Under the pieces are notes generated by a model, which was not told the DNA's origin, ran no database searches, and was given only the letters and a program-made list of their open reading frames with translations. Made by a program: the position numbers and the translations under genes. From Candidatus Heimdallarchaeota archaeon (GTDB taxonomy: Archaea; Asgardarchaeota; Heimdallarchaeia; JABLTI01): a stretch of DNA of 32,000 nt. The DNA lies in assembly GCA_030614005.1 (NCBI GenBank), contig JAUWKS010000012.1:34276-66275 (forward strand), in the 5' to 3' direction. This document shows, in pieces, positions 260 through 23,144 of the stretch (positions within the stretch are counted from its first letter, which is position 1; every line of letters starts with the position of its first letter).

Positions 260-366
260 GAAGAAGAAAAAATTTTCCTAATACAAAGACTCAAAAAGAG
301 AAAAAGAGTCAAAAAAACAACTAATAATGGGCCGGTAGATCAGACTGGAAGATCGCCTGATTTGCA

Positions 367-400
367 ATAGATAAAAGGCTGCGGGCCAAATCTAAAAAAT
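367..400 (+). other. Archaeal tRNA intron with a relaxed bulge-helix-bulge
   Basis: 5' bulge C365 A366|A367. Intron helix TAGAT(368-372)/ATCTA(390-394) with inner GGC/GCC. Central helix TTTG(361-364)/AAAA(395-398) has one G.A mismatch. 3' bulge A399 T400|T401. Confidence 0.85.
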
Positions 401-405
401 TTCAG

Positions 406-439
406 GAGGCCGTGGATTCAAATTCCACCCGGTCCACCA
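406..439 (+). repeat. tRNA 3'-end repeat, source copy (GAGGCCGTGGATTCAAATTCCACCCGGTCCACCA)
   Basis: This 34-mer recurs four more times almost intact and once partially on the same strand. Confidence 0.95.
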
Positions 440-1046
440 CCTTCTTTTCTCTTTTCCACCTCGTTCTGTCCTTCTTTTTATTTTTATTGTGTGGTATCTG
501 TTACCATTAAAAATTGGATTAATAGAACAAAATTATTTTTACTCATTTTAAAACCTAGAGTTCGAAAAATCTCTTTAGCTTAACAGGATCAGCTCTATCT
601 TCATCATCAATCAGTATAAACACACCGACATTTCTTTTGATGTATTCCTTGCTCCAGTCCTCTTTTATCTTCCATCCTCCTGTTGCAAACACTCCGTTAT
701 CCATATCGTAGAAAGGAACATGGGTGTGGCTGAGGATAATTTTATCTGTCTGAAGAATCTTTGGAAGAAAGTCTATGCTGTTAGTTATTAACTGTTTCTT
801 CATGTTAGTTGCCGCTTGATTCCAAGTTTCATTCACTCGTTTCTTAAGACCAATGTTATGTCCATGGCAGATGATAAACCGACCTTCTAGAGTATTTAGT
901 TTCACATAGGGAACTACTTGGATGTCCGGTCTATCGAATAGCAAGTTTCCTTCGTGTCCCATCCCACCTGTTACAAAGACTAACTTTTCCTTAAATCCCT
1001 TCTCAATACTCCAGTCAACAAAAGAGTCTAATGCCTCCTTTCCTGT
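440..1046. repeat. ~600 bp left end of segment 1, repeated in diverged form at 16830-17443
   Basis: Non-coding 441-554 vs 16831-16944 has 14 mismatches in 114 nt (hand count). The encoded phosphoesterase parts are about 80% identical in amino acids (hand count). Confidence 0.95.
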
Positions 1047-1190
1047 TTCATCGAAATTATCTAAGAAATCACCGTTCATAATAATTATATCTACTTTCTT
1101 TGACGCGCTTTCTAGCGCTTCTTTGAATTCATCCTCTAAACATCCTTCTGCACCTAGATGTACATCACCAACCACTATTGCAAGAGTCAC
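555..1190 (-). CDS. Calcineurin-like metallophosphoesterase
   Basis: Motifs GDVH, NGDFLD, TGGMGHE (in place of GNHD/E), CHGH and SHTH. GTG start overlaps the helicase stop by 4 nt, with a GGAGG SD upstream. Confidence 0.9.
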   Translation of the reverse strand: MTLAIVVGDVHLGAEGCLEDEFKEALESASKKVDIIIMNGDFLDNFDETGKEALDSFVDWSIEKGFKEKLVFVTGGMGHEGNLLFDRPDIQVVPYVKLNTLEGRFIICHGHNIGLKKRVNETWNQAATNMKKQLITNSIDFLPKILQTDKIILSHTHVPFYDMDNGVFATGGWKIKEDWSKEYIKRNVGVFILIDDEDRADPVKLKRFFEL

Positions 1191-3502
1191 CCCGCTAGAT
1201 CCTCCTTTGTCTTTTGTACTAAAAATGAGTTGACTATTCCAATAGAATCTTCTGATACATTAGCAAATAAAGGTAAGATTGACTCTTGAGTTTGCTTATT
1301 TATTAGAGCTTCATTAACTAGTTTCCTCATTTGTTCTGCTACTTTTTGGAATTCTCTAAAAAGAAATGCCGCATTGCCTAACTCTCCACCTCTATCATAA
1401 ATAACTATTTTATTCTCGTGTACGTTCACCACTGTTCTAAAAGAGGGCTCTGAAATATGCAATGCTATTTCTGTACTCTTTAGAATAAGGTCTTTCAATA
1501 AACTTAGTGCTTCTCTTTTCTTTTTATTGCTTGACTTCTTAGCTGAAAAAGTCACCTCTACTAAGAAACCACTAGTTTTCTCTTGCGAGTGGAAAACCTG
1601 CTCGTCTTGATGATTATCATCTATTTTGTTACCTGTTTTCGTGTACCTCACAACTTCAGCAGTTTCTCTTTGAATGACCATTTTGCCAAATCGAATATTT
1701 AGTTCAGCAAATCTAAACACTCGTGCCTGTTTGTCAATTTGGATAGAAGGAGCCTTTAGTTTGTTTTGTTCAATTGATGATTTATTAATTTGAAGCTTTT
1801 CTACAACAATCTTCCTCTCTAGCGATTTTTCAACTCGGTAGATATCTCCCTGTCTTCCTAGGTAAAGGAGGTTACCCTCTAAAGCCGTTCGTAATATTCT
1901 TTGCTCCTCAATTTCACCAATTATCCGTTCAAAATTATTATCAAGACTTCTCTCAACTAGTAACCTTCTTTGCCCTGCAGATCGAATTTTGTGGTTTCGT
2001 ATGAACTGTAATAGCTCTTGTTCATCAGCTATAATTAATTCACGTCTATCAGCAGAAACTTTGTGATTTATAGTTCGAAGAATGCCGTCTGCTATTAGCA
2101 TAACGATTGCTGTCTGAGTTATTTGCTTGCTTTCCAATGTTTTGCTGAAAGCAAGAATTTCTTCAATTGTTGTTATCCCCATATATATTCTGAATAACAC
2201 AAAAGCTTTCATTCTTTGTAAGGACTGTGAGTTAAACAATATTTGTTCAGCAGTGTTCTCTTCAAGAATGGTCTTTATTATTCGATAATTTTCCAAATAA
2301 TACTTATCCAATACTCGTTCTGTGTCTAATATTAGTGTAAAATTCTTTTTCTGAGAAATATCTTGAAATCGCAATCTTCCCATTCTTTGTATTAGCCCAT
2401 TCTTACCTGTTATCGGCCAGCCTATATTGATAATATGTTGAATTTTTGGTATATCTATTCCTAACTCAAGCAATGATGTAGTGAATAGAAATCGAAGTGA
2501 TCCATCCATTATTCTCTTTATAATATCTGCTTTATCAGATTCTGTTAGTTGACTATTGATACACATAAATGGTGAGTTTTGTTTTACTATCTCTAATGGT
2601 AAATCTGTTTTTATCATCAATTGTTCATTAAATTTCGCCACTAACTGACTGACTTTTTGCACACTATCAATGAATACTAAACATATTCCCCCTATCCTTT
2701 GAAGATGTGGGTCGATTCGCTCAAGTATGAATTGTTCTAGTGAATCCTTAGGAAGGATCATCACTCGAATCACTCCCCTTTTGCCTACAGCTTTTACAAT
2801 CTTTGCGCTTGGCAAGAAATTATCTCGAAATGAAGCAACATCCTTTACTGTAGCTGAAGCAAGAATTACTCTTAACTTTGGATTCGTTTGTTTAAAGGCT
2901 GCAATAAACTCTCGAACATGAGTTAAATATCCTCCCGAACCTGCATGTATTTCGTCAAATACCATTATATCAGTTTGTTTAATCCAGTCGAGAAAACCAT
3001 ATTTATCTTCCTTGAAACGTCTGTAGAACAATTTATCTAAAGTTGCCAAGATGATCTGTGGTTTCTTCTTCTCAATTTGTTCCAAGTCTTGTTTTGATAG
3101 GTCGCCATTGTATCTGCTATAGGTGATCTTTTTCCCTGTTGCTTCGAGAATATGATTGCAATAGCGAGTTAATCTTTGTTCCTGGTCAGCAGCAAGCTGC
3201 TTGGTTGGATAGATAATGATTGCATTAGAAATCTTCTCATCTATTAATTCTTTAAGTATTGTAAATAGAAACACTTCTGTTTTTCCAGCACCAGTCCCTA
3301 CTGTGAGAAAAAGGTCATCACCAGCAAGAATTTTCTTCATAGCTTCAATCTGGTATTTGTAAAGAGTGTAGGGAAACGCTTGTTTCAATGCTTTACCAAG
3401 CTTCACCATACCTACTTCAGGATCATCAATATAATGATTAGTTTTCTCACTCTCTTGTGGTTGGATATTAAAGGTTGCTTTAACGATGCAGTGGTTTGGC
3501 AA
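1187..3502 (-). CDS. DEAH-box SF2 helicase, YprA/MrfA (DUF1998-like) family
   Basis: Q motif YKYQ, I GTGAGKT, Ia YPTKQLAADQ, Ib ATLDKL, II DEIH, III SAT, V TTSLLELGIDI, VI QRMGR. ALEGNLLYLGRQGDIYRV and IYDRGGELG resemble the MrfA/DUF1998 C-terminus, but the terminal Cys cluster is absent. Confidence 0.85.
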   Translation of the reverse strand: MPNHCIVKATFNIQPQESEKTNHYIDDPEVGMVKLGKALKQAFPYTLYKYQIEAMKKILAGDDLFLTVGTGAGKTEVFLFTILKELIDEKISNAIIIYPTKQLAADQEQRLTRYCNHILEATGKKITYSRYNGDLSKQDLEQIEKKKPQIILATLDKLFYRRFKEDKYGFLDWIKQTDIMVFDEIHAGSGGYLTHVREFIAAFKQTNPKLRVILASATVKDVASFRDNFLPSAKIVKAVGKRGVIRVMILPKDSLEQFILERIDPHLQRIGGICLVFIDSVQKVSQLVAKFNEQLMIKTDLPLEIVKQNSPFMCINSQLTESDKADIIKRIMDGSLRFLFTTSLLELGIDIPKIQHIINIGWPITGKNGLIQRMGRLRFQDISQKKNFTLILDTERVLDKYYLENYRIIKTILEENTAEQILFNSQSLQRMKAFVLFRIYMGITTIEEILAFSKTLESKQITQTAIVMLIADGILRTINHKVSADRRELIIADEQELLQFIRNHKIRSAGQRRLLVERSLDNNFERIIGEIEEQRILRTALEGNLLYLGRQGDIYRVEKSLERKIVVEKLQINKSSIEQNKLKAPSIQIDKQARVFRFAELNIRFGKMVIQRETAEVVRYTKTGNKIDDNHQDEQVFHSQEKTSGFLVEVTFSAKKSSNKKKREALSLLKDLILKSTEIALHISEPSFRTVVNVHENKIVIYDRGGELGNAAFLFREFQKVAEQMRKLVNEALINKQTQESILPLFANVSEDSIGIVNSFLVQKTKEDLAG

Positions 3503-3504
3503 GT

Positions 3505-4023
3505 CTAATTCTCTCCTTGGATTTTAGCAGCGTATAAAATTGAAAATATTGAACTAAATTCATCCTTTAAAAAATCATTTATTTCTTCATCGGTTGTATA
3601 TTCTTCTCCTTTCGAATAAAATTGGATTATTCCAGAAATGCATTTTGTTATCGCTTCTTTTCTTCCCTCTCGAGATAAGAATCTGATATTTGATGAAAAA
3701 TTTTGAATTATTATTTCTTCTTCACGTTCTTTTAGAGCGATTTCTTTATTCAATTTTGTTCTATTATATAATTCAGCATGTGCTTGTGGACTAATTTGTA
3801 AATGTGGAGGTAATGCTTGCCCTAATGCGAGACTGTTATAGAGTTGAACCAAATTATCTAATTGGGAACCTTCTTTCAATCCAAAACGATATTTGTACTT
3901 TTGTCCAATACGCCATATTAGACCTTTTTTCTTCAACTCCTGAAGAGTTAGATACGTTTCTGTAAGAGCTATACCTGCTCCATCAGCTATTACTTTGGCT
4001 TTTTTTTGGATAGGCAATTCCAT
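3505..4023 (-). CDS. Hypothetical protein, possible N-terminal winged helix
   Basis: 172-aa ORF tightly coupled in the operon. ETYLTLQELKKKGLIWRIGQKYKY resembles a wHTH recognition helix and wing. Confidence 0.65.
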   Translation of the reverse strand: MELPIQKKAKVIADGAGIALTETYLTLQELKKKGLIWRIGQKYKYRFGLKEGSQLDNLVQLYNSLALGQALPPHLQISPQAHAELYNRTKLNKEIALKEREEEIIIQNFSSNIRFLSREGRKEAITKCISGIIQFYSKGEEYTTDEEINDFLKDEFSSIFSILYAAKIQGEN

Positions 4024-4059
4024 ATTTTATGAAATCACCTAACAAATACCATATCACTT

Positions 4060-5556
4060 TTATCGTATCCATTCTATTTCAAGCTCCTCAAATCGATTGC
4101 AATATTCAATTACTCTAGGAGAAAATTTATTCGGTTGCAGGTTATTTTCTTCCAGAAAATCCTTCTCTCGGTCTTCAAAAAGGAGAGACGAAGATTTAGA
4201 ACAAGTAAGGTTTTGTTCTACTTTCTTAGCAATTCGCTTATTTGGGTAATACACTAACGGTTTAAAATTCGCTTTTTTGATCTCCTCTTGACAGATCCTA
4301 AAGGCTATGTCCTTCATTTGTTCCCTTTCTTCTATGTCTAATGAAATCCATTGAGCAGATAATCGCCAGAATTTCACAGGTATCTCTCTTTCACAATCTA
4401 TTATCTTTACCATTAATTGCTTTTCAAGAAATTTCTGATGAATAGCTGAGAGTAAATTATCAAATTCAACAATAAATTGCTTACAAGCTTCTCTGAAGGT
4501 TCGATAGGTTTTTCCATTGAAGTAACATGGTTCACTAAATAATTGTTGTTTGAGCTTGTAAAGCATCTCTTCTCCTCTTTTGTTAACAACATAGACAATC
4601 TCCCCTTTAAATACATCAAGTTTATCAACTAATGAATTAGTTATTCTTTTGTCAAGAATAGCATGTACTAGCTTTATGTGTCCTGCGAACTTTAACGCTT
4701 CACACAAATCAAGCACCAGTCCCATCCATGATAGATCAGAGTAATAACTGAAATGACTAAATCCCCCAACACCTAGATACTTTAAATCTAATTCATCAAG
4801 TATATTCCACAATTCCTCCTCACAGAGAATGAACATATAATTAAACAGAACATCTCCTTTTGTACATGCCATTGTTTTGTAATTGCCTGTTGTTCTTTTA
4901 TGTAGATATAATCGATTGGACACTCGATTGCTGATAGCAAAATCAAAAGTGCTTATTAGTTCATTAGTTACCATCCAAGTAATATCTGCTGCTGATGCTT
5001 CTGAAAGATTACAGAGAACACTTGTATTACAATTATATCCATAAAGATAGGCATCACATATTGCATCAACAAAAAGCTGCCACTTTTGTTTTTCTGAAGA
5101 GAACCCTCGCAATGTTTGAACCAAGGCTAATCGATTAGATAGATTCGACCGCCAAAAGACATTGTTTAATCCAAAAGAAAATCGCATTACATCTACCGTA
5201 AGAGCTCTTTGACAGTCCATTCGCTCAACTTTAAACCATCCTTGAGGAGAAGAAATGCGAACATAATGGCACCCTGCAGAAACTAATTGTTGTTTTATCT
5301 CCTCAGAAATTCCCTGATAGTCATATACGAATTGTATTACTGACAAATTATATTGAAGCTTGTCTACATGAAGATTATAATCTTTAATAATCACTTGTTG
5401 TCCAGGCAGTATTTGAAAACCTAAGCTCACTTTATTCTTTTTCCGGGCTTCATCAAGCGTTAATCCAGTAAGTTTATACACTTCTTCATTGAAGATATGT
5501 TGATTATCCTTAACACATAATATATACTGTTGATCATCCTTTCTACTTTTACTCAA
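4060..5556 (-). CDS. cas1: Divergent stand-alone Cas1 / casposase-like integrase with a ~130-aa C-terminal extension
   Basis: Cas1 motifs in the correct order: N-terminal beta domain VIQFVYDYQGISEEIKQQLVSAGCHYVRISSPQGWF; E186ASAADITW (EG/AxAAxxYW/F); R-x3-R then GDVLFNYMFILCEEE (DPxNAxLNYxY); GGFSH268 (GFLH); LVLD283LCE286ALK (LALDLMEEFR); then VYVVNKRGEEMLY...FREACKQF. TTG start with a GAGGAGG SD. Confidence 0.8.
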   Translation of the reverse strand: MSKSRKDDQQYILCVKDNQHIFNEEVYKLTGLTLDEARKKNKVSLGFQILPGQQVIIKDYNLHVDKLQYNLSVIQFVYDYQGISEEIKQQLVSAGCHYVRISSPQGWFKVERMDCQRALTVDVMRFSFGLNNVFWRSNLSNRLALVQTLRGFSSEKQKWQLFVDAICDAYLYGYNCNTSVLCNLSEASAADITWMVTNELISTFDFAISNRVSNRLYLHKRTTGNYKTMACTKGDVLFNYMFILCEEELWNILDELDLKYLGVGGFSHFSYYSDLSWMGLVLDLCEALKFAGHIKLVHAILDKRITNSLVDKLDVFKGEIVYVVNKRGEEMLYKLKQQLFSEPCYFNGKTYRTFREACKQFIVEFDNLLSAIHQKFLEKQLMVKIIDCEREIPVKFWRLSAQWISLDIEEREQMKDIAFRICQEEIKKANFKPLVYYPNKRIAKKVEQNLTCSKSSSLLFEDREKDFLEENNLQPNKFSPRVIEYCNRFEELEIEWIR

Positions 5557-5557
5557 T

Positions 5558-7600
5558 TCAATTCCTCCTCATTTTCTTTCTCTTTTGAATCAATTTGAAT
5601 GTAGTATTACACATTGAACAGCTAACAGGTTTCAATCCCTGAGCTGGTCTATCATCTGTGCCAAAATCTTCAATTACAATTTCTCTCCCCTCCACTAAAC
5701 AAGTAGAACATAAATAAGCATATATCTCTTTTTTATCTGCTGAATATCCCACAAAACTTCTGGTAATTGCATCATAGAATTCTTCAACAGTATAAATTAT
5801 AGTTACCTTTTCTTTTCTTATAAAATGCTTGCAACCAACAGTTGTACTTCTGAGTGTTTTGGTAGCTCGAATATGGTTCTCACTTGAAACTTTTCGTTCA
5901 GCTATATTTATTGCTCTTCGCCAGAACATACAACGTCTTTTTTCAAACCAATGACAATCCCCACAAACGACTTTGAAATGTGCCGGGAAATCTTTACTTG
6001 TATAATAATCAAGACTTCTCCCCAAGGGTGGTTTGGCTGTTAGCGTCTTCACAGGATACCCACTTTTAGATAGACTTTGGATTGCTTGCTTTGCTTCAAA
6101 AGGATTAATGGTAAGCATTGAGCAAATTTTGTTTTGAGTAATAGGAGACTCAGTATTTGCCAGCAGTTCTTTTAGTGCTCGTTCAATTGTTTGTCTATCC
6201 ATTTTCTTATTTATTGGTGATTCCTCAACATCATAGGATTTTTGCAAAACTCTATTCAAGAGCTTTAGACTTTCTCTTGAATCTTGAGTCATCTGATCTC
6301 TAAAGCAATTTAACATCTGGGTAATTTGGAAAAGTACATAACTATTATTAGAAGCTGCTAGAATACTAGCAATGGTTTCCTCTTCATCTTTGAGAATATC
6401 TAACCTACCGATTAAAAATTGCAAATCATCAAATTGTAATTTCCCTCGTGTAAAATCGCTAAATATTTCCTGTACTAGTTCCCATGTAATGATGTCATTC
6501 TCAGTTTTTTTTCGGATAGTTCTCAAAAACATCATAGGATCGTTTAGCATCTCTTCAAAGTAGGTTGAAGCAATAATGTATTGTCTTCCAAATGTAGTCA
6601 AAGTGAAACGACTATAACTACTTTGATCTTTCTTTACTAAAGCAAATGCTCCTAGATGTCTTTCTTGCAAACTCTCAAATAGGGATATATTTTGGAAGTA
6701 TTTCGTATGGAAAATTAATTCAGTAAGGTGCTGTCTCATTTCATCATCTGTTTTCTTTTTCTTTGCTTGATATATTCGAAAGTACGTTGCTTTCTGTAAT
6801 CGTTCAATGAGTTGTTTTTTCGAAGGGGATCCTGAATATAAACAAAACAGAATAATACTCAAGAAAGCATCTTGTAATGCGTCCTCGTTTAATTCTTGAT
6901 ATATAGCTCTCACAGCCTCATTTGTTGAGATCATTATGTTATTAAATCCTCTTTCAATTTCTTCGGCAGGAATCAATCCGGTAGAAATAAAATGCTTTCG
7001 TACATGTGTTCTCTCTCGTTGAGGTAGAAGCAAAAGGATTGGGTCAATGTTATCAGAAATCCAAGACTTGCGAGCTCTATTAAGCGACTTATTCTCATCA
7101 AATGGATCAATGAAAATATACGCATTGACGATTGGCAGCTGGACTTTTGCTTTCAAAGCATCGTCTCGACTCTTTCGATATAACAGATTTCGAGTCAACG
7201 TGTTATAACTTGTTATGATTAGCTTATTCGCTGCTAGAGGGTGACTGTTTCCTTTAAATTTTGAAAACGTAGAAGCAATCTTCATCCCTGCAAGAGTTTT
7301 TTTGGAGGTCTCTGCAGTAACTTGATCCTCATCGTAATTAGCATAATTATAGATTTTCTTGGCTTGTTCAGAGGTTCGAACAATAATCATTGCTGTTTGG
7401 TCGGATAATCTAGCTGAAAGTAAAGCTATAGTGGTAGCTAATTGTAACTGGTCTTCAGGGAGAATTTCATAAAAAAATATGTCTGTTTCACATAGAACCG
7501 TTTTTCGAATAATGCTTAAGTTATCAACACAAGTAAATGGATAATCTCGAAAGATAGTGGTTATGCTAATGGGTAATTGTGTTCTATAAGTTGTTATCAT
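5558..7600 (-). CDS. Inactivated Hel308/Ski2-like protein with winged helices and C-terminal Cys clusters
   Basis: Degenerate RecA1 domain: no Walker A, Ia-like AMIIVRTSEQAKKIY, Ib-like IITSYNTL, II-like IFIDPFDE. Hel308-type WH (LIERLQKATYF...LTTFGRQ), a second wHTH, then CGDC-C-C and CSTC-CSMC. Confidence 0.6.
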   Translation of the reverse strand: MITTYRTQLPISITTIFRDYPFTCVDNLSIIRKTVLCETDIFFYEILPEDQLQLATTIALLSARLSDQTAMIIVRTSEQAKKIYNYANYDEDQVTAETSKKTLAGMKIASTFSKFKGNSHPLAANKLIITSYNTLTRNLLYRKSRDDALKAKVQLPIVNAYIFIDPFDENKSLNRARKSWISDNIDPILLLLPQRERTHVRKHFISTGLIPAEEIERGFNNIMISTNEAVRAIYQELNEDALQDAFLSIILFCLYSGSPSKKQLIERLQKATYFRIYQAKKKKTDDEMRQHLTELIFHTKYFQNISLFESLQERHLGAFALVKKDQSSYSRFTLTTFGRQYIIASTYFEEMLNDPMMFLRTIRKKTENDIITWELVQEIFSDFTRGKLQFDDLQFLIGRLDILKDEEETIASILAASNNSYVLFQITQMLNCFRDQMTQDSRESLKLLNRVLQKSYDVEESPINKKMDRQTIERALKELLANTESPITQNKICSMLTINPFEAKQAIQSLSKSGYPVKTLTAKPPLGRSLDYYTSKDFPAHFKVVCGDCHWFEKRRCMFWRRAINIAERKVSSENHIRATKTLRSTTVGCKHFIRKEKVTIIYTVEEFYDAITRSFVGYSADKKEIYAYLCSTCLVEGREIVIEDFGTDDRPAQGLKPVSCSMCNTTFKLIQKRKKMRRN

Positions 7601-7606
7601 CCTACT

Positions 7607-8245
7607 TCACTCCTGGTTTAGCAATAGCTCTTCTAGGTGTTCGGGCAGAGAAAGCAACTCCTCGCCAACAAACCGATCGATGTACTCCGCCATTTCTATC
7701 TCGAGTGATTCAGGAGAGCTCTCATCAATAATCGAAACTGGGAACTTGTCCAGAAATTCCTCACTCAATTCTTTCACTGTTTCTTGTTTGTTTGTCACTC
7801 TTTCAATAATAGTTTCTAAGTGCTTCTTGCTAGTTTTAAGTTGCAGTAAAAATGAATCATCAGGTTCTTCTGCGAGTTGACTTTGGATTTGCATTTTTAT
7901 ATTGAATTCTGGTTGACTGATTATCAAAATAAATTGGAGAAGGTTATTATTTATCTCAAAAAGCAATGGTTGAGTGTCTGATCGTGGTAGTTTTTCAATT
8001 ATCAACCATTCAGTTAGTTTCTTGACTTTCTGTTTGAATGTCATCAAGCTCATTTTCTCTAGCACTTGATTGTACAATGACAGTACGGATGGGTACGTCA
8101 CTTGACCGAATTTTATTAAATTATTTACTAGCAACTCACAGATAACTAGCAAATTAGCAGTGATTTTAATGTCTGGATTATCCAATTCCACTGAATTCGC
8201 TGGAACTGATTGTTGAAAAGCACTAGTGTGAGTCATTTCCGTCAA
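7607..8245 (-). CDS. Hypothetical protein, possible winged-helix DNA-binding domain with acidic C-terminus; first gene of the operon
   Basis: 212-aa ORF. VTYPSVLSLYNQVLEKMSLMTFKQKVKKLTEWLIIEK is wHTH-like. Its stop overlaps the SD (GGAGTGA) of the next gene. Confidence 0.7.
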   Translation of the reverse strand: MTEMTHTSAFQQSVPANSVELDNPDIKITANLLVICELLVNNLIKFGQVTYPSVLSLYNQVLEKMSLMTFKQKVKKLTEWLIIEKLPRSDTQPLLFEINNNLLQFILIISQPEFNIKMQIQSQLAEEPDDSFLLQLKTSKKHLETIIERVTNKQETVKELSEEFLDKFPVSIIDESSPESLEIEMAEYIDRFVGEELLSLPEHLEELLLNQE

Positions 8246-8462
8246 TAATTTAAAGGAAAATTATGTTTTTAAAGTACTAAAAGTATAAAAAAACGAAAAG
8301 GTTCGAAAGAAGAGTTCGAAAAGAAGGCAGGATAAGGCTTCTTTTAACTCTACGGAAGATTACTTTATGTCCCTTTAGAATTATATGTAATCCCATTTTT
8401 TCCTTTTTTTCTGTATTTTTGCCCTTTCTTTGAGAAATTTTCTCTTTGATTTCTCTAAATTT

Positions 8463-8567
8463 CTCGTGTCGGAACGACGACCGTTAAAAAAGACCACCGA
8501 AGTGTGGGCTTTTAGGTCGCACGAGGGGAGCGTTCAGCGACAGTTTTTTGGTCAAGGACATTCCCTC
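8463..8567. other. GC-rich multi-stem structured non-coding element
   Basis: 45 of 80 nt are G/C over 8463-8542 in an AT-rich background. Nested inverted repeats: TGTCG/CGACA, GAACG/CGTTC, CGACC/GGTCG, AAAAGACCAC/GTGGGCTTTT. Alternative pairings: CTCGTG/CACGAG and GAGGGGA/TTCCCTC. Confidence 0.6.
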
Positions 8568-8634
8568 TTACTTCTGAGCTGTGAATTTTTCTCAAAATTT
8601 TTTTGCTTCTTAAAATTGCAGAGTTATTCTTAAA

Positions 8635-10281
8635 TTACTCTTTTTCCGTACATAATACAAAAAATGTTTTTACATACTGGTGTAGGACAGAATTTTGAAT
8701 AGTGTTTGTTTTTACTATTTCTATTCCAAACCGATTTTTCAAATCTGTATAAAGTCTCTTACTATTATTTAGAACAATTAGATAATCCTTGCAGTATGCC
8801 AAAGATTTCAATAAGACAAGTAAGTTATCATTAGGTTTTAGATTTAATCTAGCTATAGTTTTCCTCGAACGGAAATGATAATGATCATTTTGTTCAAGAA
8901 AAAGCATTAACTGATGAGGTACGTTAGAGAATAAAGGTAGAAGCTTGAGAAGATGAGTGATAGGAAGATTTCCAGTGTATTCATAAGCAGCTAACCGACC
9001 TTTTTTTATTTCCAAAAAATCTGCTAAATCTTGCTGAGTCCAATGGTTATTTTTACGAACTTTTCGCAAATAATTAGTGCAATCCGGAATTAGAAGCATA
9101 GGGAGAAGTTCAAAATTAAAGAAAGTAGTATCATTTATGGTAATAAGAGCTTCAGGATTAATGTCTTTAACATACAAACGTTCGAATAATTTTGTTTTCC
9201 TGCTCTTTAGATATTGTAATAAATACTCTATCTTAGTTATATGCCTTGATTTAAGATAATTACCTATTATATCTTTAGAGATTGCCATAATTTGAAGAAC
9301 ATAACTTTCACCATAAATTGATTTGTGATGATAAATGGAATACTTAATTTTATATTGATCCAATACTTTTCCAAAAGCTTGTACAAATTGTCTTGATGCA
9401 GATGAAAAACTAATACCTCTAATATAAGAACCATCAGCATCCAATACTCCACTCCAGAATTCCCAGCGAAGAGTCTCATCCGACGTAAAAATAAGAGGTT
9501 CTTTCAAGGAATCATATTTTTTCCCAGTAATAGGTTGGTCTGTAAGGAAATTGGTTAACCTAACAATCCATTTGTTATTCAAATGCAACAACCAAATCTT
9601 CTTTTCACCTGATATTTTGCCTTGAATACCAAATAATTGATTTGCTAATTTTTGCATCATAAGCATGTGGTCTTGTGAGAAATCCACCAATTCTATATTA
9701 TGGTAGTTCAAGTGACCATCACCAATGACTACTCCCAAAAAATAAGCTAAATCTTTTGAGAGTCTTGTAGGCATATGGAAGTGTTCTCCCCGAGCAGATT
9801 GGAAAGGAACATATTCTTGTGTGAGGAATTCTTGCCAAAAGTCACTTAACCGGAAAAGAGGGAAAGGCAGTCGCTGCTGGTTTTCAGTATAGTCGATGAT
9901 CTTTTGTTGCCACTTCTTGATAGAATAAGCAATAGCTGTATCTTGAAAATAATAACTGCATCGCTCAGCTAAAGCAAGTGATTGTTTTCTAATCTGTTGG
10001 GAAATCTCACAAGGTAATGTAACATAAGGCAATCGCTGTAATAATCGTTCTCCTGACTTAAAATCGATTTTACGAATCAAAATGGAGTAAAGATTTAGGA
10101 TATTAGGTTCAAGGAATATTTTTGATTGCTTATTCAGCTCAATTAGTTTATTCGCTGTTAGCCACTGGTTTTTAGGTGTGGGCAAGTTATCAATAAGCAA
10201 AAAGTCTGTTTGCCAAGATTTAGGGATTTCATCAAACATCTTATTGAGTACTTTGTAATTGGGAATATAAAACTCCCCCAA
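8635..10281 (-). CDS. Stand-alone LAGLIDADG endonuclease-family protein with an XRE-type HTH
   Basis: Two motifs, LAYFLGVVIGDGHL and FWSGVLDADGS. HTH LRKVRKNNHWTQQDLADFLEIKKGRLAAYE. No intein splicing motifs seen. Confidence 0.85.
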   Translation of the reverse strand: MGEFYIPNYKVLNKMFDEIPKSWQTDFLLIDNLPTPKNQWLTANKLIELNKQSKIFLEPNILNLYSILIRKIDFKSGERLLQRLPYVTLPCEISQQIRKQSLALAERCSYYFQDTAIAYSIKKWQQKIIDYTENQQRLPFPLFRLSDFWQEFLTQEYVPFQSARGEHFHMPTRLSKDLAYFLGVVIGDGHLNYHNIELVDFSQDHMLMMQKLANQLFGIQGKISGEKKIWLLHLNNKWIVRLTNFLTDQPITGKKYDSLKEPLIFTSDETLRWEFWSGVLDADGSYIRGISFSSASRQFVQAFGKVLDQYKIKYSIYHHKSIYGESYVLQIMAISKDIIGNYLKSRHITKIEYLLQYLKSRKTKLFERLYVKDINPEALITINDTTFFNFELLPMLLIPDCTNYLRKVRKNNHWTQQDLADFLEIKKGRLAAYEYTGNLPITHLLKLLPLFSNVPHQLMLFLEQNDHYHFRSRKTIARLNLKPNDNLLVLLKSLAYCKDYLIVLNNSKRLYTDLKNRFGIEIVKTNTIQNSVLHQYVKTFFVLCTEKE

Positions 10282-10284
10282 AAA

Positions 10285-10734
10285 CTACTTGAAATACTTC
10301 TCTTTTTGAATTAACCATTCAACTTTGTAGGCTGCTAAATCATTTACAGAAAAAAATTCATATCCTGCTTTCCAAAGGATTAAACCAATTATTATAGCTG
10401 ATCGACCAAGAACATCAGTGATATCAATTAGTAATTCCTCTTTGGTTATATCATAATAATGTTGCAGGTAATATTCAGAGAGAAAGAGCATTTCAAGGGA
10501 ATTTTGAGATGAATCCAATTGATAAAGTGCTCCTGCAAGATAAATTCGAGCTAAATCGCTTTCAGTAGAAATTAACTCATGTTTAATTTGATTAAATGTA
10601 ACCTCATTAGTAAAGGTAGCAAGAGCCCAACAAGCTTTTGCTCTAACCACAACGTCGTCATTTTCAACCAGTAAAGCTATAGACTGCATGTCATTTGTAC
10701 TAAATAATTCAGTAAGCAGAGCTTCTCTATTCAT
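10285..10734 (-). CDS. HEAT-repeat protein
   Basis: VVVRAKACWALATF and LARIYLAGALYQL resemble HEAT_2/PBS-lyase repeats. Coupled to both neighbours (3 and 12 nt gaps). Confidence 0.65.
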   Translation of the reverse strand: MNREALLTELFSTNDMQSIALLVENDDVVVRAKACWALATFTNEVTFNQIKHELISTESDLARIYLAGALYQLDSSQNSLEMLFLSEYYLQHYYDITKEELLIDITDVLGRSAIIIGLILWKAGYEFFSVNDLAAYKVEWLIQKEKYFK

Positions 10735-10746
10735 AGTATGGAATCC

Positions 10747-12846
10747 TCATTCAATATGAATTTCAACATTATCTACCCAAGATGTTACACCAAATAAACT
10801 TTGTTGACTCTCAAGAAATGATTTATTGACTTTCACATAAAGAATAGCTTTGTCGGCATTAAGAAGGTTTTTTCGAAACTCAAGTAAATTTGCTGCTTCT
10901 TTTATTAGGTGTGGAAGATCTGGTTCGTAAGAGATATTACTCCGATCTTTACAGCTGACTAATATCATCTTGTCATTTTGGAAGGCAATATGATCAATTT
11001 CAAATGGCTTACTGATATTTGAAAGGAAAACATTTGAAGCTACTTGATAGTCTTCTGTTATTAGCCTATCTCGTATTTCTTGCTCATAAGTTGTTCCATC
11101 TCCTCTTCGATTTTTAATATCATGAACTTTTATTGATAATGGCAATTTTTCTTGTAGTTGTTTTTTATATTGAAGAAGAACTAGCAAGTTTGAATTCTGT
11201 GTTAATTGATACTTGAGTTCGAGTATTCCAAAATAATCCTTCTCAACTAGAAATGAATGAATCATTTGAAATACTGTACGTCTATTTGGTTCGATAACTT
11301 TTTCAGAAATTACACCTAAATCAACATTCGTTTGTTGAGATTCTCTGTTAACAACATCTTTTATGTAAGAATAGAGTAATTGGAAGTCAGTTACTGAAAT
11401 ATTCATCAATAGGCAGTATTCAGTAATATTGGGTGAGTTTAAAGAGGTGATTACTGACAAACATTCTAATGCTTCATTTTGCAATTCTGCCTTAGATACA
11501 ACTTCGCTTGTTATAGGATGAATTTGACTTGATTTATTTTCAGTTAGTAAAGCTTGTTTTTTTGAGTATTCTAACATAGAGTCAATTATTAAATCTAGTG
11601 AATCCCTTATGTTCATAGTAGCCGATAAACCAATGAGAAGAACCCCACAAGATAAACCATATTGTTTAGTTATTTGAAAATGAGTGTGTAAACGCAAAAT
11701 ATCTTGATTAATAAATAAGAATGGAAACACATACACAAATTTATTAATTTTTCTTGTTGTGTGTAATAAATCTGCTATTGCATATTCAAGCTCACTACTA
11801 AGTGTTTTATCTGATGTTTTTATCTCACACAGTAGTAGAAATTGTAAACGTTTGTTTACGGCTATTACATCAACAATTTTTCTATTACCATTGATATTTT
11901 CATCTGAATTATTGAAGTTTAATAATACTTCAGGTAGTAGTATCAAATCTCTTGTGGTTGCAAATTGTTTTATAATATTCCTAACCAACAACTCATATGA
12001 GAAATCGCAATGGTCACCCAATGCACTGGAATATGACTTGAGAGTTTTGAGAGAAAGGCCTCTGCACTCAAGAAGAGACATTAGTTGTAAATCTTTTTCT
12101 GCAATTTCTGTTAACTCAAAATCTGGAGATGAGAATAAAACCGTAATTGATTTTCTTTTCCCACAATAAGGAAAATAAAGACATTTCTCAGGCTTTCTTC
12201 CAGTGTGCTGTCTGATTATTCGAGTTTCAATAATCATTGTTTCTTCACCATCTTTAGAAGCAATTACTAATTCTGATTTTTTAAACCAATCTTTGATGTA
12301 ATGATTCAATTGGTATGACAAGGAAATAGATCCACCATCTGTTAATGTTCCAATTGCCTTAATAAAAAGTAAACCTTTATCTCTATAGATTGTGAATTTA
12401 CGATTTCCTTTACCGCCATTGATAATGGGTGTTAGTAAGCATACGTTCGGTAGTTGTACGGAATTTAATAGAGTTAGAGCTTTTTGATACTTCTTTGTTG
12501 GTATAAAGTATGAGTTATTTATCATATTAATCTGGCAAATAATTATTTCCCTATGTTGGAAATCTGATGAATTTGAAAGATGAATGTATATACCATTTTT
12601 AATTTTAGTAATTTTAATGAGAATGTTAAGGTAATGGGTTCCTGCTGAAACTGACTTGATTTGTATTTGCAATATGTTAGATCTATTTCCAATTTCAAAC
12701 CATTGAGTTATTTCCTTTGGTATGTTGATTATGCTATTTTTTAATATCCGTCCCTTTAATTCTATTATTCCATTAGAATATATACTAAAACCATTTTTCT
12801 TTGATGTCATATCTTTTTGAAAGACTAATTCCTTTTCCATTTTCAT
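10747..12846 (-). CDS. Multidomain protein with two PD-(D/E)XK nuclease-like domains and an AbrB-like beta-rich N-terminus (ORF could extend to 12945)
   Basis: KIVDVIAV...LLCEIKT and YEQEI...FEIDHIAF...LVSCKD. N-terminal GRILKNSIINIPKEITQWF is AbrB-like. ATG at 12846 is preferred over TTG at 12945. Confidence 0.6.
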   Translation of the reverse strand: MKMEKELVFQKDMTSKKNGFSIYSNGIIELKGRILKNSIINIPKEITQWFEIGNRSNILQIQIKSVSAGTHYLNILIKITKIKNGIYIHLSNSSDFQHREIIICQINMINNSYFIPTKKYQKALTLLNSVQLPNVCLLTPIINGGKGNRKFTIYRDKGLLFIKAIGTLTDGGSISLSYQLNHYIKDWFKKSELVIASKDGEETMIIETRIIRQHTGRKPEKCLYFPYCGKRKSITVLFSSPDFELTEIAEKDLQLMSLLECRGLSLKTLKSYSSALGDHCDFSYELLVRNIIKQFATTRDLILLPEVLLNFNNSDENINGNRKIVDVIAVNKRLQFLLLCEIKTSDKTLSSELEYAIADLLHTTRKINKFVYVFPFLFINQDILRLHTHFQITKQYGLSCGVLLIGLSATMNIRDSLDLIIDSMLEYSKKQALLTENKSSQIHPITSEVVSKAELQNEALECLSVITSLNSPNITEYCLLMNISVTDFQLLYSYIKDVVNRESQQTNVDLGVISEKVIEPNRRTVFQMIHSFLVEKDYFGILELKYQLTQNSNLLVLLQYKKQLQEKLPLSIKVHDIKNRRGDGTTYEQEIRDRLITEDYQVASNVFLSNISKPFEIDHIAFQNDKMILVSCKDRSNISYEPDLPHLIKEAANLLEFRKNLLNADKAILYVKVNKSFLESQQSLFGVTSWVDNVEIHIE

Positions 12847-12997
12847 AGTTTTTGAGATATTGTTTCCTAACACCAGAGTCATAATTATCAATATAATATA
12901 AGAGTAAGGAGTTATAAGTATTTTGTGGAAATCCAAACTTTCCAAAATATGCTTAAATTGCGAAAAATACTTAATCTATAAGGTAAAATAAGTAACT

Positions 12998-13165
12998 ATG
13001 AAATTCATAGGTAGCGCTAAACTCTACGGAAAAAATCAAATCACCGTCCCAAAAGAAGTAGTAGAAGAATTGAAGTTAAAACAAGGAACACAAATCATCT
13101 TCCTTCAAAACGATGAAGGTTACGTGTATATCGTAACTGAAGTTGCTTTACCATCTAAAGAATAA
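12998..13165 (+). CDS. AbrB/MazE/SpoVT-family DNA-binding protein (55 aa; not in the ORF track)
   Basis: Hand translation MKFIGSAKLYGKNQITVPKEVVEELKLKQGTQIIFLQNDEGYVYIVTEVALPSKE fits the AbrB pattern. Divergent from 12846 and followed by a T-tract. Confidence 0.85.
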   Translation: MKFIGSAKLYGKNQITVPKEVVEELKLKQGTQIIFLQNDEGYVYIVTEVALPSKE

Positions 13166-13621
13166 GAGAGCCCTATTGATTCTTTTTTTTTAGATTCTTA
13201 GGAACAGTTCGTGTGTCAAATCGTAAACAATTATCATCAACATACTCTCCGGAATTATCCCAATGTGTCATTTTTAACATACTTTTATCAGTACTTATAC
13301 ACTTATCTTCAGTTAATCCTTCTCGTAATATTTGGAAACTCAAGTAAGAAAAAGGATCATAAGGAGGGAAAGGTGATAATTTAACCTTTTACAAGATGAA
13401 AAAGTATTAATTTTCATTACAAGTGAAGTTGAAATATCGTATCCAAAGGGCTAATAGAGATGAAAAGTCAAGGATTATTTGACCAGTAAACAAAATTAGT
13501 AAAGACGACTGATTTAGAATTTGACAGATTGAAAAGTTCAACTAGTAAAGCAAACCAAAAATTGAAATATATACTAGAATAAAAAGATCTTATTCTAATG
13601 AGTATTAAGCAATGACTAGAC

Positions 13622-16540
13622 TTAAATTTTATAATTTATACAATCATCTGAATGAAACTCTTTTTTCTTGCAGAAAAATGGTAGTCCAGGTTTTATAAGG
13701 TTTTTATTTTCTTCTTCAAAATGCTTACATGCGTTATTCAATTTAAGAAGTAGTTCTAATGGATCAAAAATTTTTTCAGTATCTTTTAATCCATAAAAAT
13801 AGGCTTTTCTTACAGCGTTATCTAGTTCTTCATGTAATTTTTTTAGAATATTATCTCCGGGTAATTCTAAGGTTCTATATATTTCTCTTAATGACAAATG
13901 CTTTTCGTCTCTTAGTTTGTTCCGGGTTATTCTTAATTCTCTAGCTTTATTTGCTACATCAATACAGAGTTTAACTTTTTCATCCAAGTTATCTTGAATA
14001 TCAATATCATTTATAACACCAAATTGAGGCCAGGGAAAAGTATTATAGATTGTTGTTATTGTATATCTATAATCTCCTTTCAAAGTTGAACAACGTGCTT
14101 TTATCCATTCCCAATGAAATGAACTCTGTAAAATACCAAATGAATAATCATCACCTAAAGGAAATGCTATTAGTGCATCATTTGGTCGAATATTTGATGA
14201 AACAAAATCAAATATGGATCTTTTTGCAACCCGACTACAAGCAATGTATCTTGGAATATTCTTGATTAGGTTAATTAAATCCTTTCTAGTTCTCCAAAAT
14301 AACCACCATTTCTTTAAATGATTTTGACGAACGGTATCTTTTTTCTCTAGTTTTTCATATAGCTTCATTTCTTCATCAGCTTTTTGTTCAATTGTTGGGA
14401 GAACCTTTTGTTTTATTATTTTAAATGGGGTTTTAAATTTCTGTGCATCAAATAAAGACATCGATTGAAAATCTATCACTAATCGGTCTGGTCGAGATTT
14501 TATATTACCCAGCATTGCGTTTGCTATTAAGTAAGGAAAAATTACTTCTCTCGCTTTAGGTTCCTTTTTGAAAATATCTTTAGCTTGTTGTCGAGATAAA
14601 ATAAACCCACTGTGTCCATGAGTTTGACCTTGGTAACAAGTTCTTGAATTCTTATTTGTAATTAATGCTTTTGCTGAGATGACATCTAATTTTGGTGAAA
14701 GAGAAGAAGGTATCCATTTTAGATCATATTCCTCGAGCAAATTATTGGGGTTTTTCTCATCATAGAATAGTAATTTCTTATTCTTAGATTCATCAGTCTC
14801 TCCCTTAATCCAATTTACAATGGATACGTGAACTTGAGCTTCCCCACTCCAAGGCATAGTGGAAACAGCTTCTATAATAGTTCCATTATTTTCAATAATA
14901 TACTCCAACCCATCTTTTTTTGAATAAGTTTGTCTAATTGTATTTGTACCAACAAGTCCTGCTTTACCACCTTCCTTTAACTTGTTATGAGCTTTGCGAA
15001 ACCAATAAACACAGTAATCTACTCTACCATTTACATCTGGATATTGTTTTCTTAACTTCTCCACATATTCTGGTCCAAATTCTTCAATCATCTTATTTTT
15101 AGCCTGAAAAGGAGGATTACCAATGATTATATCTGCTTCGGGCCAGTCAATAAATAGGGCATCATCAATGATGAAATTTGTATTTAGATTATCAAAAGGT
15201 AATGGACTCTCTGCATCATAATTCAACAAACGCTGACTATTGAATTCATTAAAAGTATCTATTGCATCTTTCTTAGCGAATGATAATGTTATTTTAGCAA
15301 GTTCAATAGCAAAAGGATTAGTATCAATTCCGAAAAATTGTGTTGATTTAATTTTAGATTGTAAAGAATGTTTTTTCTTTTCAAGTGATGGATATTCAGT
15401 TATCATTTTTCGTATTAAATCAAGTTCAATATGTTTTAATTCCCTAAACGCTACAGAGAGAAAATTACCACTTCCACAAGCAGGATCTAGAATTCTCATT
15501 TCACTTAAAGAGTTCCAAATCCTCTCCAACTCTTTTAATGATTTTGCCTCAGTTATTTTTAATCTAATCGGTCGAAGAATAGTTGGTTCTACTATTTTCA
15601 TAATGTCTGATTCTCTTGTATAATGAGCACCATATTTGTGACGTTCATCTTTTCTTAGACTTGATTCAAATATATTGCCAAAAATAGCAGGTTGGATTTT
15701 AGACCAATCATGAAGAGCTACTGCGTGTAAATTTTCCAATTCACTCTTGCTTAATTCAATAGGTTGAATGATTTTAAAAATATCACCATCAAAATATGAA
15801 ACTTCTTTAAATCTACCTCCTGTTTCTTTTTTTGTTGAATTCATCTTAGTAAAAAGTAATTTAAAAAGATCGTAGCTATTAGCTCCATTTATACAATCTT
15901 GAATTAATTCTGTGAAAAAACCTCGAACTGGAAATAAACCAGTATCTTCAGCAAAAAAACAAACTAAACATTGGAGTGTAAACCTTTGAGCTTTTTCATA
16001 ATTAACACCTCTCTTTATTAAACTCAAATATAATTTTGCTATTTTTTGTGCTGCTACTTCTGTAACAGCAACTCTATCATTATTGAATATCGGTTTTATA
16101 TCTCTTCCATGGTAAAGAAATGATAAAGCTCTCCATCTTTTCGCTAAATTATCTATATGTATTATATCAACTGGATCGGGTTGTTTGTTCCAATCAAATA
16201 TCCAAAATTCATCAAAATTACACAAAATGACATAAGAAGGTCGCAATTTATAGATGTTTATCCAGTAGAATTTAGCTTGACTTATATGTTTGTTTAAATC
16301 TTCACCTCTTGATTTCATTTCTATCAATACTCTTTCAGGCCAAAATAAGTCTGCATAATAGGTTTTATTTTCGATTTTTATAGAGGCTTCAAAAGAAGCA
16401 CCACACTCAAAAACCCCTTCATGTCCAAATGCTTCGAATAAATGGTTCAAGAATGTTTGGGATTCCTGTTTTTCTCTACCAGATAATTTTTTTGCAAAAG
16501 ATAGAAATTCTTCAAGGTTGCTTTCAATTAGCTTTGTCAT
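13622..16540 (-). CDS. MmeI/YeeA-like (Type IIL/IIG) fused restriction endonuclease and N6-adenine methyltransferase
   Basis: N-terminal ADLFWPERVLIEMKS nuclease motif, GAHYT, motif I LDPACGSGNFL, motif IV IGNPPF, and an MmeI-like C-terminal TRD (YGILQS-type region FGILQSSFHWEW, YRYT, TFPWP). Confidence 0.9.
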   Translation of the reverse strand: MTKLIESNLEEFLSFAKKLSGREKQESQTFLNHLFEAFGHEGVFECGASFEASIKIENKTYYADLFWPERVLIEMKSRGEDLNKHISQAKFYWINIYKLRPSYVILCNFDEFWIFDWNKQPDPVDIIHIDNLAKRWRALSFLYHGRDIKPIFNNDRVAVTEVAAQKIAKLYLSLIKRGVNYEKAQRFTLQCLVCFFAEDTGLFPVRGFFTELIQDCINGANSYDLFKLLFTKMNSTKKETGGRFKEVSYFDGDIFKIIQPIELSKSELENLHAVALHDWSKIQPAIFGNIFESSLRKDERHKYGAHYTRESDIMKIVEPTILRPIRLKITEAKSLKELERIWNSLSEMRILDPACGSGNFLSVAFRELKHIELDLIRKMITEYPSLEKKKHSLQSKIKSTQFFGIDTNPFAIELAKITLSFAKKDAIDTFNEFNSQRLLNYDAESPLPFDNLNTNFIIDDALFIDWPEADIIIGNPPFQAKNKMIEEFGPEYVEKLRKQYPDVNGRVDYCVYWFRKAHNKLKEGGKAGLVGTNTIRQTYSKKDGLEYIIENNGTIIEAVSTMPWSGEAQVHVSIVNWIKGETDESKNKKLLFYDEKNPNNLLEEYDLKWIPSSLSPKLDVISAKALITNKNSRTCYQGQTHGHSGFILSRQQAKDIFKKEPKAREVIFPYLIANAMLGNIKSRPDRLVIDFQSMSLFDAQKFKTPFKIIKQKVLPTIEQKADEEMKLYEKLEKKDTVRQNHLKKWWLFWRTRKDLINLIKNIPRYIACSRVAKRSIFDFVSSNIRPNDALIAFPLGDDYSFGILQSSFHWEWIKARCSTLKGDYRYTITTIYNTFPWPQFGVINDIDIQDNLDEKVKLCIDVANKARELRITRNKLRDEKHLSLREIYRTLELPGDNILKKLHEELDNAVRKAYFYGLKDTEKIFDPLELLLKLNNACKHFEEENKNLIKPGLPFFCKKKEFHSDDCINYKI

Positions 16541-16793
16541 TAACTACTTCCTTCTCATTTAGATATAAATAATTGTTGTTTAGAAATTATTAAAATTTGC
16601 GATTGCACAACCGTGTTCTTAACGCTTCCCACATTCTTTTTAGATTATGTAATTAAAGTATTTCTAACTCTTTACTCTGAAACATGTGTTTTTATTTCTC
16701 TATTAGTGAAGGGGAGAAAAAATAAATGAATTTTTTAAGGTGATTTCTTCTTTCTATAAAAAGAACACTTCTATAAAAATATGCTGCTTTTAA

Positions 16794-16829
16794 AGGATGC
16801 CGTGGATTCAAATTCCACCCGGTCCACCA
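16794..16829 (+). repeat. tRNA-Ala 3'-end copy 1 (att/TSD-like)
   Basis: Matches 404-439 at 35/36 (G408 to T). Confidence 0.95.
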
Positions 16830-16944
16830 CTTTCTTTTCTCTTTTCAGACTCGTTCTGTCCTTCTTTTCATTTTTATTTTGTGCTATCTGTTACCATTAA
16901 AATTTAGACTAATAGGACAAAATCATTTTTGTTCATTTTAAAAC

Positions 16945-20347: not shown

Positions 20348-20370
20348 TTTCAGTTTTCCATTTCAAAAAA

Positions 20371-20404
20371 GAGGCCGTGGATTCAAATTCCACCCGGTCC
20401 ACCA
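20371..20404 (+). repeat. tRNA-Ala 3'-end copy 2
   Basis: 34/34 identical to 406-439. Confidence 0.95.
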
Positions 20405-23114: not shown

Positions 23115-23144
23115 CCGTTGATTCAAATTCCACCCGGTCCACCA
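23115..23144 (+). repeat. tRNA-Ala 3'-end copy 3
   Basis: Matches 410-439 at 29/30 (G414 to T). Confidence 0.95.

What the first reader, a model, noticed from the sequence alone, without database searches (positions are those of the whole stretch)
8463..8567. GC-rich switchable secondary structure upstream of the Cas1 operon
Seen: an ~80-nt rod made of TGTCG(8467)/CGACA(8538), GAACG(8472)/CGTTC(8531), CGACC(8478)/GGTCG(8515) and AAAAGACCAC(8488)/GTGGGCTTTT(8504), capped by CGAAGT and followed by a T6 tract on the plus strand. A mutually exclusive pairing CTCGTG(8463)/CACGAG(8520) and a further GAGGGGA(8523)/TTCCCTC(8561) pairing are possible. Inference: candidates are a small ncRNA (possibly a partner of Cas1 or the LAGLIDADG protein), an attenuator, or an ssDNA origin/nick site; C-GAA-G loops are known to be very stable in ssDNA.
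Basis: partly seen in the sequence, partly recalled or inferred. Interest (0 to 1): 0.65.

Follow-up and report, generated by a model that had tools for sequence, protein, structure and literature searches.

The report
Folded DNA site in Asgard islands
This is one copy of a conserved, branched, roughly 90-base hairpin element that recurs in Cas1-bearing mobile islands of one family of Heimdall (Asgard) archaea; its loops suggest it works as folded single-stranded DNA rather than as RNA, but its job is untested.

Summary
Across 13 homologues a three-way junction is conserved (8463-8525: two stems, a side mini-hairpin, a covarying inner hairpin), plus a nearly invariant 15-mer (8527-8541). It belongs to a family of at least 48 distinct copies, found only in this Heimdall family and not in Rfam. 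Copies sit between a LAGLIDADG-HTH gene and a divergent-Cas1 operon (27) or beside AbrB-led Cas7/Cas5, TnpB or PD-(D/E)XK modules (11). On the strand opposite the genes (window +) the loops read GAA or GTA (41 of 67 triloops; genome background 6.5%), the extra-stable DNA GNA triloop. That strand is also purine-rich and folds better, as in integron attC sites. Best reading (0.5): a folded ssDNA or cruciform cis-site of these islands, most likely a module-exchange point. Structured RNA stays a serious rival (0.33) because wobble pairs do not settle the strand. It fails attC membership: no integron integrase found, no AAC/GTT. The scan noted paralogues before on other DNA and read them as ncRNA.

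The parts
8463..8525 (+). Conserved three-way junction: P1 8463-8468 with 8520-8525, side mini-hairpin, P3, inner hairpin
   Evidence: DNA energy -14.0 vs -10.3 kcal/mol for the rod
8469..8477 (+). Side mini-hairpin with GAA triloop (8472-8474); homologues show GAA, GTA or GAC, a compensatory T-A to A-T change, and a one-pair insertion in this copy
8478..8519 (+). Stem P3 (8478-8482 with 8515-8519) enclosing the inner hairpin 8488-8513; loop carries GAA at 8499-8501. The inner sequence is replaced between subgroups while a hairpin is kept
8527..8541 (+). Nearly invariant 15-nt motif; equals the two arms that flank the inner hairpin in subtype E, joined together. Probable protein-recognition motif (inference)
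   Evidence: 81-93% identity in all type A homologues; alignments
8353..8381 (-). Separate conserved motif upstream of the Cas1 operon; a related motif also occurs in loci that lack the folded element
8635..10281 (-). LAGLIDADG-HTH endonuclease, two LAGLIDADG motifs with invariant D188 and D281/D283; 14 matches in this genome
7607..8245 (-). First gene (212 aa, no family) of the Cas1 operon downstream of the element
4060..5556 (-). Divergent Cas1; best fold match casposase 6OPM, E 2e-6 (model pLDDT 64)
555..3502 (-). SF2 helicase (1187-3502) and metallophosphoesterase (555-1190) ending the operon
10285..13165 (.). HEAT protein, PD-(D/E)XK (NERD) nuclease and divergent AbrB-like gene (12998-13165, +): one of three exchangeable nuclease modules found upstream of LAGLIDADG
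329..439 (+). tRNA-Ala(TGC) with intron, the insertion site of the island
16795..16839 (+). Duplicate of the tRNA 3' end, the far boundary of the island (about 440-16794); the element lies near its middle

Best explanation
The element is a cis-acting site of the Heimdall Cas1/LAGLIDADG mobile islands that works as folded single-stranded DNA, or as an extruded cruciform, with the active strand opposite to the island's genes (window + strand). SHOWN: a conserved branched fold under purifying selection; GNA loops, purine excess and lower folding energy on that strand; constant orientation relative to the Cas1 operon and the AbrB-led modules; position at junctions between modules. INFERRED: when the island's DNA is transiently single-stranded, the GNA-capped hairpins fold and present the conserved stem P1 and the GTCGCT/ACGCTCC motif to an island protein (Cas1, LAGLIDADG-HTH or the helicase-nuclease), which cuts or exchanges strands there, so cargo and nuclease modules are swapped at this point, as attC does for integron cassettes. 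About 0.5 for an ssDNA/cruciform site of some kind; about half of that for recombination specifically, the rest for a priming or nicking signal.
For: Loops closing perfect stems of 4 bp or more read TAC/TTC on the gene strand in 41 of 67 cases and GNA in none; genome background for TNC is 6.5%. The triloop register beats the RNA UNCG register at 20 of 22 sites. The closing pair covaries T-A/C-G. d(GNA) loops are very stable even with two stem pairs (PMC3201870), which fits 2-3 bp side hairpins. Gene-strand GC skew is negative in 48 of 50 and the opposite strand folds better in 46 of 50, mean 1.7 kcal/mol as DNA; attC bottom strands show the same skew, a 2.1 kcal/mol bias and a GAA loop (PMC5027507). 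All four transition mismatches in type A stems are G.T only on the + strand. No TATA-like box near either end. The adjacent gene reads into the element from one side in 27 copies and from the opposite strand in 11. Junction signs: homology between modules starts at the element; subtype C is 83-87% identical between backbones whose LAGLIDADG proteins lie in different clades; L212 is a B/E hybrid; a variable co-oriented gene lies just upstream in 37 of 43.
Against: In subtypes B-F, helix-internal wobble changes favour the gene strand (16 events vs 5; family-wide 16 vs 8, all positions 27 vs 32), as expected for an RNA on that strand. This copy and L069 carry an insertion that gives a cUUCGg register on the gene strand. 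The energy bias is also seen with RNA parameters, so it points to a strand, not to DNA. Copies are related: the triloop signal rests on about 8 hairpin positions, not 41 independent events. No known ssDNA-processing enzyme was found in the genome: no Y1 transposase, serine resolvase or reverse transcriptase, and one tyrosine recombinase. No cassette arrays; usually one copy per island. No excision, circle or ssDNA form was observed.
Confidence: 0.5

Rival explanations
1. A structured RNA, processed from the 3' end of the neighbouring transcript (gene strand), that serves as scaffold or partner for island proteins such as Cas7/Cas5-HD, TnpB, Cas1 or LAGLIDADG.
For: Covarying stems; internal G.U changes lean to the gene strand in B-F, 16 vs 5; a co-oriented gene reads into it in 37 of 43 copies; neighbours include normally RNA-guided proteins with no CRISPR array (ARAMP per PMC8730458).
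Against: U(A/U)C triloops and 2-3 bp side hairpins are poor RNA motifs (established knowledge), and the UNCG register fails at 20 of 22 sites; no TATA box on either side; no spacer-like flank with a target was found among 12 own-genome copies, one 21-mer apart; Cas7 relatives occur in another family where the element was not found; only 3 of 7 Cas7 modules have it adjacent.
Confidence: 0.33
2. A transcription insulator or 3'-end stabilising structure that works in both directions and separates cargo genes from the core operon.
For: It lies within about 0-110 nt of a stop codon in nearly all copies, often between convergent genes.
Against: No terminator-type match; the T tract is not conserved; strict orientation and an invariant unpaired motif exceed what a terminator needs; confined to mobile islands of one family.
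Confidence: 0.1
3. A two-state attenuator or riboswitch controlling the Cas1 operon.
For: As RNA the rod and the junction have similar energies in this copy, -21.3 vs -20.1 kcal/mol.
Against: The rod is not conserved; the T6 tract is antisense to the operon and not conserved; a separate conserved motif lies between the element and the operon; the downstream gene varies.
Confidence: 0.03
4. A duplex binding site for a dimeric protein in which the palindromes never extrude.
For: P1 arms and the GCT-containing motifs are conserved in sequence.
Against: Inner stems are replaced wholesale while pairing and loop identity are kept, which requires intra-strand folding.
Confidence: 0.04

Closest known systems
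Integron attC sites (PMC5027507)
   Same: About 100 nt imperfect inverted repeat right after a gene's stop; the strand opposite the gene is purine-rich, folds better and carries GAA loops; outer arms of subtypes B-F resemble RYYYAAY/RTTRRRY; variable upstream genes.
   Different: Outer triplet is AAT/ATT or AAA/TTT and covaries, never AAC/GTT; no integron integrase found; no cassette arrays; branched rather than rod-like; strong sequence conservation.
Single-strand origins and other ssDNA signals of plasmids and phages (sso/ssi, Frpo, N4 hairpin promoters; from my own knowledge)
   Same: GC-rich imperfect hairpins, orientation-specific, exchangeable between mobile elements; GNA-type loops in some.
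   Different: No rolling-circle Rep or relaxase recognised among the island's genes; shorter; no ssDNA stage shown.
Asgard Cas1 (aCas1) loci: ARAMP and Cas1H-Asgard TnpB elements (PMC8730458, PMC10691335)
   Same: The host islands fit these classes: divergent Cas1, helicase, TnpB or Cas7/Cas5 without an array.
   Different: The passages I could read describe no such folded element; the non-coding motif they describe lies downstream of tnpB. Makarova et al. 2020 was not readable.
TnpB omega-RNA and other OMEGA scaffolds
   Same: Structured non-coding element next to a nuclease gene of a mobile element.
   Different: Lies upstream of tnpB or kilobases away; shared by unrelated nucleases; no variable guide with a target.
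Casposon terminal inverted repeats
   Same: Cas1-type integrase, insertion at a tRNA 3' end with duplication.
   Different: The element is internal here, about 8 kb from each end, and single; no polymerase B gene among the island's ORFs.

Membership tests
Integron attC | Conserved AAC/GTT triplet in the R box | tested here: not met
   Outer arms are AAT/ATT or AAA/TTT in B-F and CTCAG/CTGAG-like in A
Integron attC | Integron integrase in the genome or island | tested here: not met
   One tyrosine recombinase only, 298-aa frame on another contig; genome 90% complete
Integron attC | Tandem gene-attC cassette arrays | tested here: not met
   12 dispersed copies in the genome; at most two per module (L220)
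Integron attC | Bottom strand purine-rich, more stable, with GAA loop | tested here: met
   against PMC5027507
Integron attC | Recombination of the folded bottom strand | not testable with these tools
   needs an assay
IS200/IS605 or IS607 end | Y1 or serine transposase available; element at the transposon end | tested here: not met
   PF01797 and PF00239 not found in the genome; the element is internal in this island
Retron msr-msd / DGR hairpin | Linked reverse transcriptase | tested here: not met
   PF00078 not found in the genome
CRISPR repeat | Repeat-spacer array | tested here: not met
   single copy in the window, no array
Casposon TIR | Paired inverted repeats at both element ends | tested here: not met
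   single, about 8 kb from both tRNA-derived boundaries
TnpB omega-RNA | Scaffold at the tnpB 3' end followed by a variable guide | tested here: not met
   position upstream of or far from tnpB; no general flank-target match
Known Rfam families | Covariance-model hit | tested here: not met
   none at gathering score; best E 4.1
Intrinsic terminator / attenuator | Conserved hairpin plus U tract on the transcribed strand; two conserved alternative folds | tested here: not met
Single-strand origin (sso/ssi) | Primes complementary-strand synthesis on ssDNA | not testable with these tools
   orientation and strand bias fit; no Rep or relaxase recognised
Small non-coding RNA | Discrete transcript | not testable with these tools
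   no run could be laid; no TATA-like box near either end

The most novel reading that the evidence does not exclude
Asgard Cas1 islands use a folded single-stranded DNA site, recombined by the divergent Cas1 or the LAGLIDADG protein instead of a tyrosine recombinase, to capture and swap nuclease and defence modules (TnpB, Cas7/Cas5-HD, PD-(D/E)XK, HEPN-like, Schlafen): an integron-like system built on Cas1.
Probability: 0.15. Interest if true: 0.9.

Novelty: new variant of a known kind. Interest (0 to 1): 0.58.

Why it matters
The Asgard Cas1 homologues and the array-less ARAMP modules have no known nucleic-acid substrate or partner. This element is the one conserved non-coding feature I found shared by the Cas1 operons, some ARAMP modules and the TnpB and PD-(D/E)XK modules of this family. 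It is short enough to synthesise in four forms (each strand, DNA and RNA), so it makes that open question directly testable. If it is folded ssDNA, it would be an attC-like logic in an archaeal Cas1 system; if RNA, it is a candidate for the missing ARAMP or Cas1 partner.

Tried and rejected
Rfam at gathering and relaxed thresholds: nothing. No RNA holder was listed among public runs; this is no evidence either way, and no reads could be laid. Phage genomes, IMG/VR patterns and a CM search of the viral pattern hits: no true copy. 69 of 76 metagenome pattern hits were chance. Not found in 29 other genomes of the class with either model, nor in 120 phylum-level genomes with model R1; R1 misses even type A, so diverged subtypes elsewhere would be missed. 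Folding z-scores by strand and molecule did not discriminate, and several of those windows were mis-centred; redone as ensemble energies on properly cut elements. Guide-in-flank idea: no general match; the 21-nt match to C58 is absent for the homologous flank in G010. Complement of the 15-mer elsewhere in the genome: none convincing. A short ORF on the + strand behind an SD-like run in some homologues is in another frame in this copy, so rejected. Pfam, NCBIfam, PDB-sequence and Atlas searches did not recognise the Cas1; only the fold did. Makarova et al. 2020 could not be read. Literature searches for ARAMP and for Heimdall+LAGLIDADG+Cas1 found no description of the element.

Full report
Setting. 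The window comes from a 3.6-Mb, 33.5% GC genome whose closest database relatives are Candidatus Heimdallarchaeota. The feature lies in a 389-nt gap between a LAGLIDADG-HTH gene (8635-10281, minus) and a six-gene minus-strand operon. The LAGLIDADG protein has the fold of I-DmoI and intein endonucleases, with both acidic motif residues invariant in 51 homologues. The 498-aa operon gene escapes all sequence libraries, but its model (pLDDT 64) matches casposase and Cas1 structures first. The region from about 440 to 16794 is an island inserted at the 3' end of tRNA-Ala, whose last 35 or so bases are repeated at 16795 and three more times. The element lies near the middle of the island.

Observation. 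The core is the most GC-rich 80-mer in the window. On its own it folds no better than shuffles. Thirteen homologues of this subtype (type A) show the arms and a 15-nt motif at 8527-8541 far more conserved than the flanks. The rod fails: its outer helix is 77% paired with no compensatory change. P1 and P3 hardly vary in type A, so covariation there comes from the inner and side hairpins; P1 covaries in the wider family. The T6 tract and the 8523/8561 pairing are private to this copy.

The family. Paralogous LAGLIDADG genes carry similar GC islands just downstream. Profile searches found 12 copies in this genome. Covariance models found copies in 10 of 11 other genomes of the family and none in 29 other genomes of the class or, with one model, in 120 genomes of the phylum. 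The models are narrow, so this means not found rather than absent. Full-length LAGLIDADG-HTH and the operon's phosphoesterase show the same range. Of 48 distinct copies, 27 follow LAGLIDADG directly and 23 of those precede a Cas1-type operon. Eleven lie next to a small AbrB gene on the opposite strand that is divergent from Cas7/Cas5-HD (3), TnpB (2) or a PD-(D/E)XK nuclease (6). Ten are in other or decayed contexts. The same three nuclease modules also occur upstream of LAGLIDADG in full islands; this window has the PD-(D/E)XK version. In these two main contexts the orientation relative to the downstream operon is constant. Type A is 55-62% identical to subtypes B and E, and its 15-mer is the two arms that flank the inner hairpin of subtype E, joined. 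Decayed AT-rich and deleted versions exist, so the GC content is kept by selection.

DNA or RNA, and which strand. Loops closing perfect stems read TAC or TTC on the gene strand in 41 of 67 cases and never GNA, against 6.5% TNC among comparable genomic stems. On the opposite strand (window +) these are GTA and GAA, the d(GNA) triloop that is very stable with as few as two stem pairs (PMC3201870). The closing pair covaries, and the triloop register is longer than the RNA UNCG register at 20 of 22 sites; this copy is one of the two exceptions. The + strand is purine-rich in 48 of 50 copies and folds better in 46 of 50, as reported for attC bottom strands, which also carry a GAA loop (PMC5027507). 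No TATA-like box lies near either end. Against this, helix-internal wobble events favour the gene strand in subtypes B-F (16 vs 5) while type A favours the + strand (0 vs 4, one terminal); over all positions the count is 27 vs 32. The copies are related, so the loop signal rests on about eight hairpin positions. I therefore rank ssDNA or cruciform above RNA, but not by much.

Mechanism. Shown: fold, selection, strand bias, fixed orientation, position at module junctions. Signs of exchange at the site: homology among Cas7 modules, and with a TnpB module, begins at the element; subtype C is 83-87% identical in backbones whose LAGLIDADG proteins fall in different clades; subtype B with its LAGLIDADG clade sits on a type A operon in L036; L212 joins a B-type first hairpin to an E-type core; L220 has an intact and a weak, decayed copy (E 0.14) in direct orientation around one module; unrelated genes end just upstream in the same orientation in many copies. 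Some of this could equally reflect ordinary homologous recombination at the one conserved spot. Inferred: the folded + strand is bound and cut or exchanged by an island protein. No such step was observed, and no known ssDNA transposase, serine resolvase, reverse transcriptase or integron integrase was found in the genome.

Comparison with known systems. It works most like attC in position and strand features but fails membership on the core triplet, the integrase and arrays. It is not an IS200/IS605 end, retron or DGR part, CRISPR repeat, casposon terminal repeat, omega-RNA or Rfam family by the tests listed. The host islands fit the aCas1, ARAMP and Cas1H-Asgard classes (PMC8730458; PMC10691335); the passages read do not describe this element, and the original ARAMP paper was not available.

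Earlier scan notes. Paralogues were noted before on other pieces of this genome and in related genomes; follow-up agents read them as a small RNA. My additions are the link between type A and the other subtypes, the rejection of the rod, and the loop and strand analysis that argues for DNA. The claim that every ARAMP copy ends in the element was not reproduced: 3 of 7 have it adjacent.

Verdict. A real, selected, undescribed element family tied to Asgard Cas1 islands. Best explanation: folded ssDNA cis-site, 0.5; structured RNA, 0.33. New variant of a known kind; interest 0.58.

Noticed in passing
window 405-449, 16795-16839, 20370-20414, 23110-23154, 24140-24184: The last 35 or so bases of tRNA-Ala are repeated four times downstream, marking a tandem stack of insertions; the duplication length resembles a CRISPR repeat and starts just after the tRNA intron.
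   Followed up: partly
window 8541-8561 vs G000 C58:3447-3467 (and 19 of 21 at C58:1075): The 21 nt directly 3' of the element on the + strand match perfectly, antisense, inside a host surface-protein gene (E 6e-4). The homologous flank in G010 has no such match, so probably chance.
   Followed up: partly
L001, L071, L069, L226, L154: TnpB, Cas7/Cas5-HD and PD-(D/E)XK-HEAT modules, often with an AbrB gene, replace one another at the same slot upstream of LAGLIDADG, like interchangeable maintenance nucleases.
   Followed up: partly
window 8353-8381; related motifs after LAGLIDADG in C63, C67, C78, C122: A second conserved motif (AAAGGGACAT / AAAGGAATGTC / AGAGGG types) lies upstream of the Cas1-type operons, also where the folded element is missing; candidate operator or LAGLIDADG-HTH site.
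   Followed up: no
L001:4020-4180, L024, L033: Some type A homologues have a possible outer long-range stem (CTCACAAA with TTTGTGAG, one compensatory change in L024) that would extend the fold to about 190 nt; its 3' arm is lost in this window.
   Followed up: partly
G000: Thirteen TnpB-family matches but no Y1 or serine transposase found in the genome; several lie beside tRNAs or Cas1 islands.
   Followed up: no
L224 and L220:3350-3387: Two copies have the same inner stem with loops that are reverse complements of each other (TTGC vs GCAA), a loop inversion of the kind hairpin or cruciform DNA can produce.
   Followed up: no
L216, L076: The element also occurs, without LAGLIDADG or Cas1, in regions of small unknown genes that share a similar-looking 121-123 aa ORF; possibly another mobile element type.
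   Followed up: no
G000 C71:90626-90718: ARAGORN calls a tRNA-Pyl (CTA) in this genome.
   Followed up: no
window 16945-17415: Truncated phosphoesterase and about 250 nt of end sequence from an older sibling island directly behind the first one.
   Followed up: no
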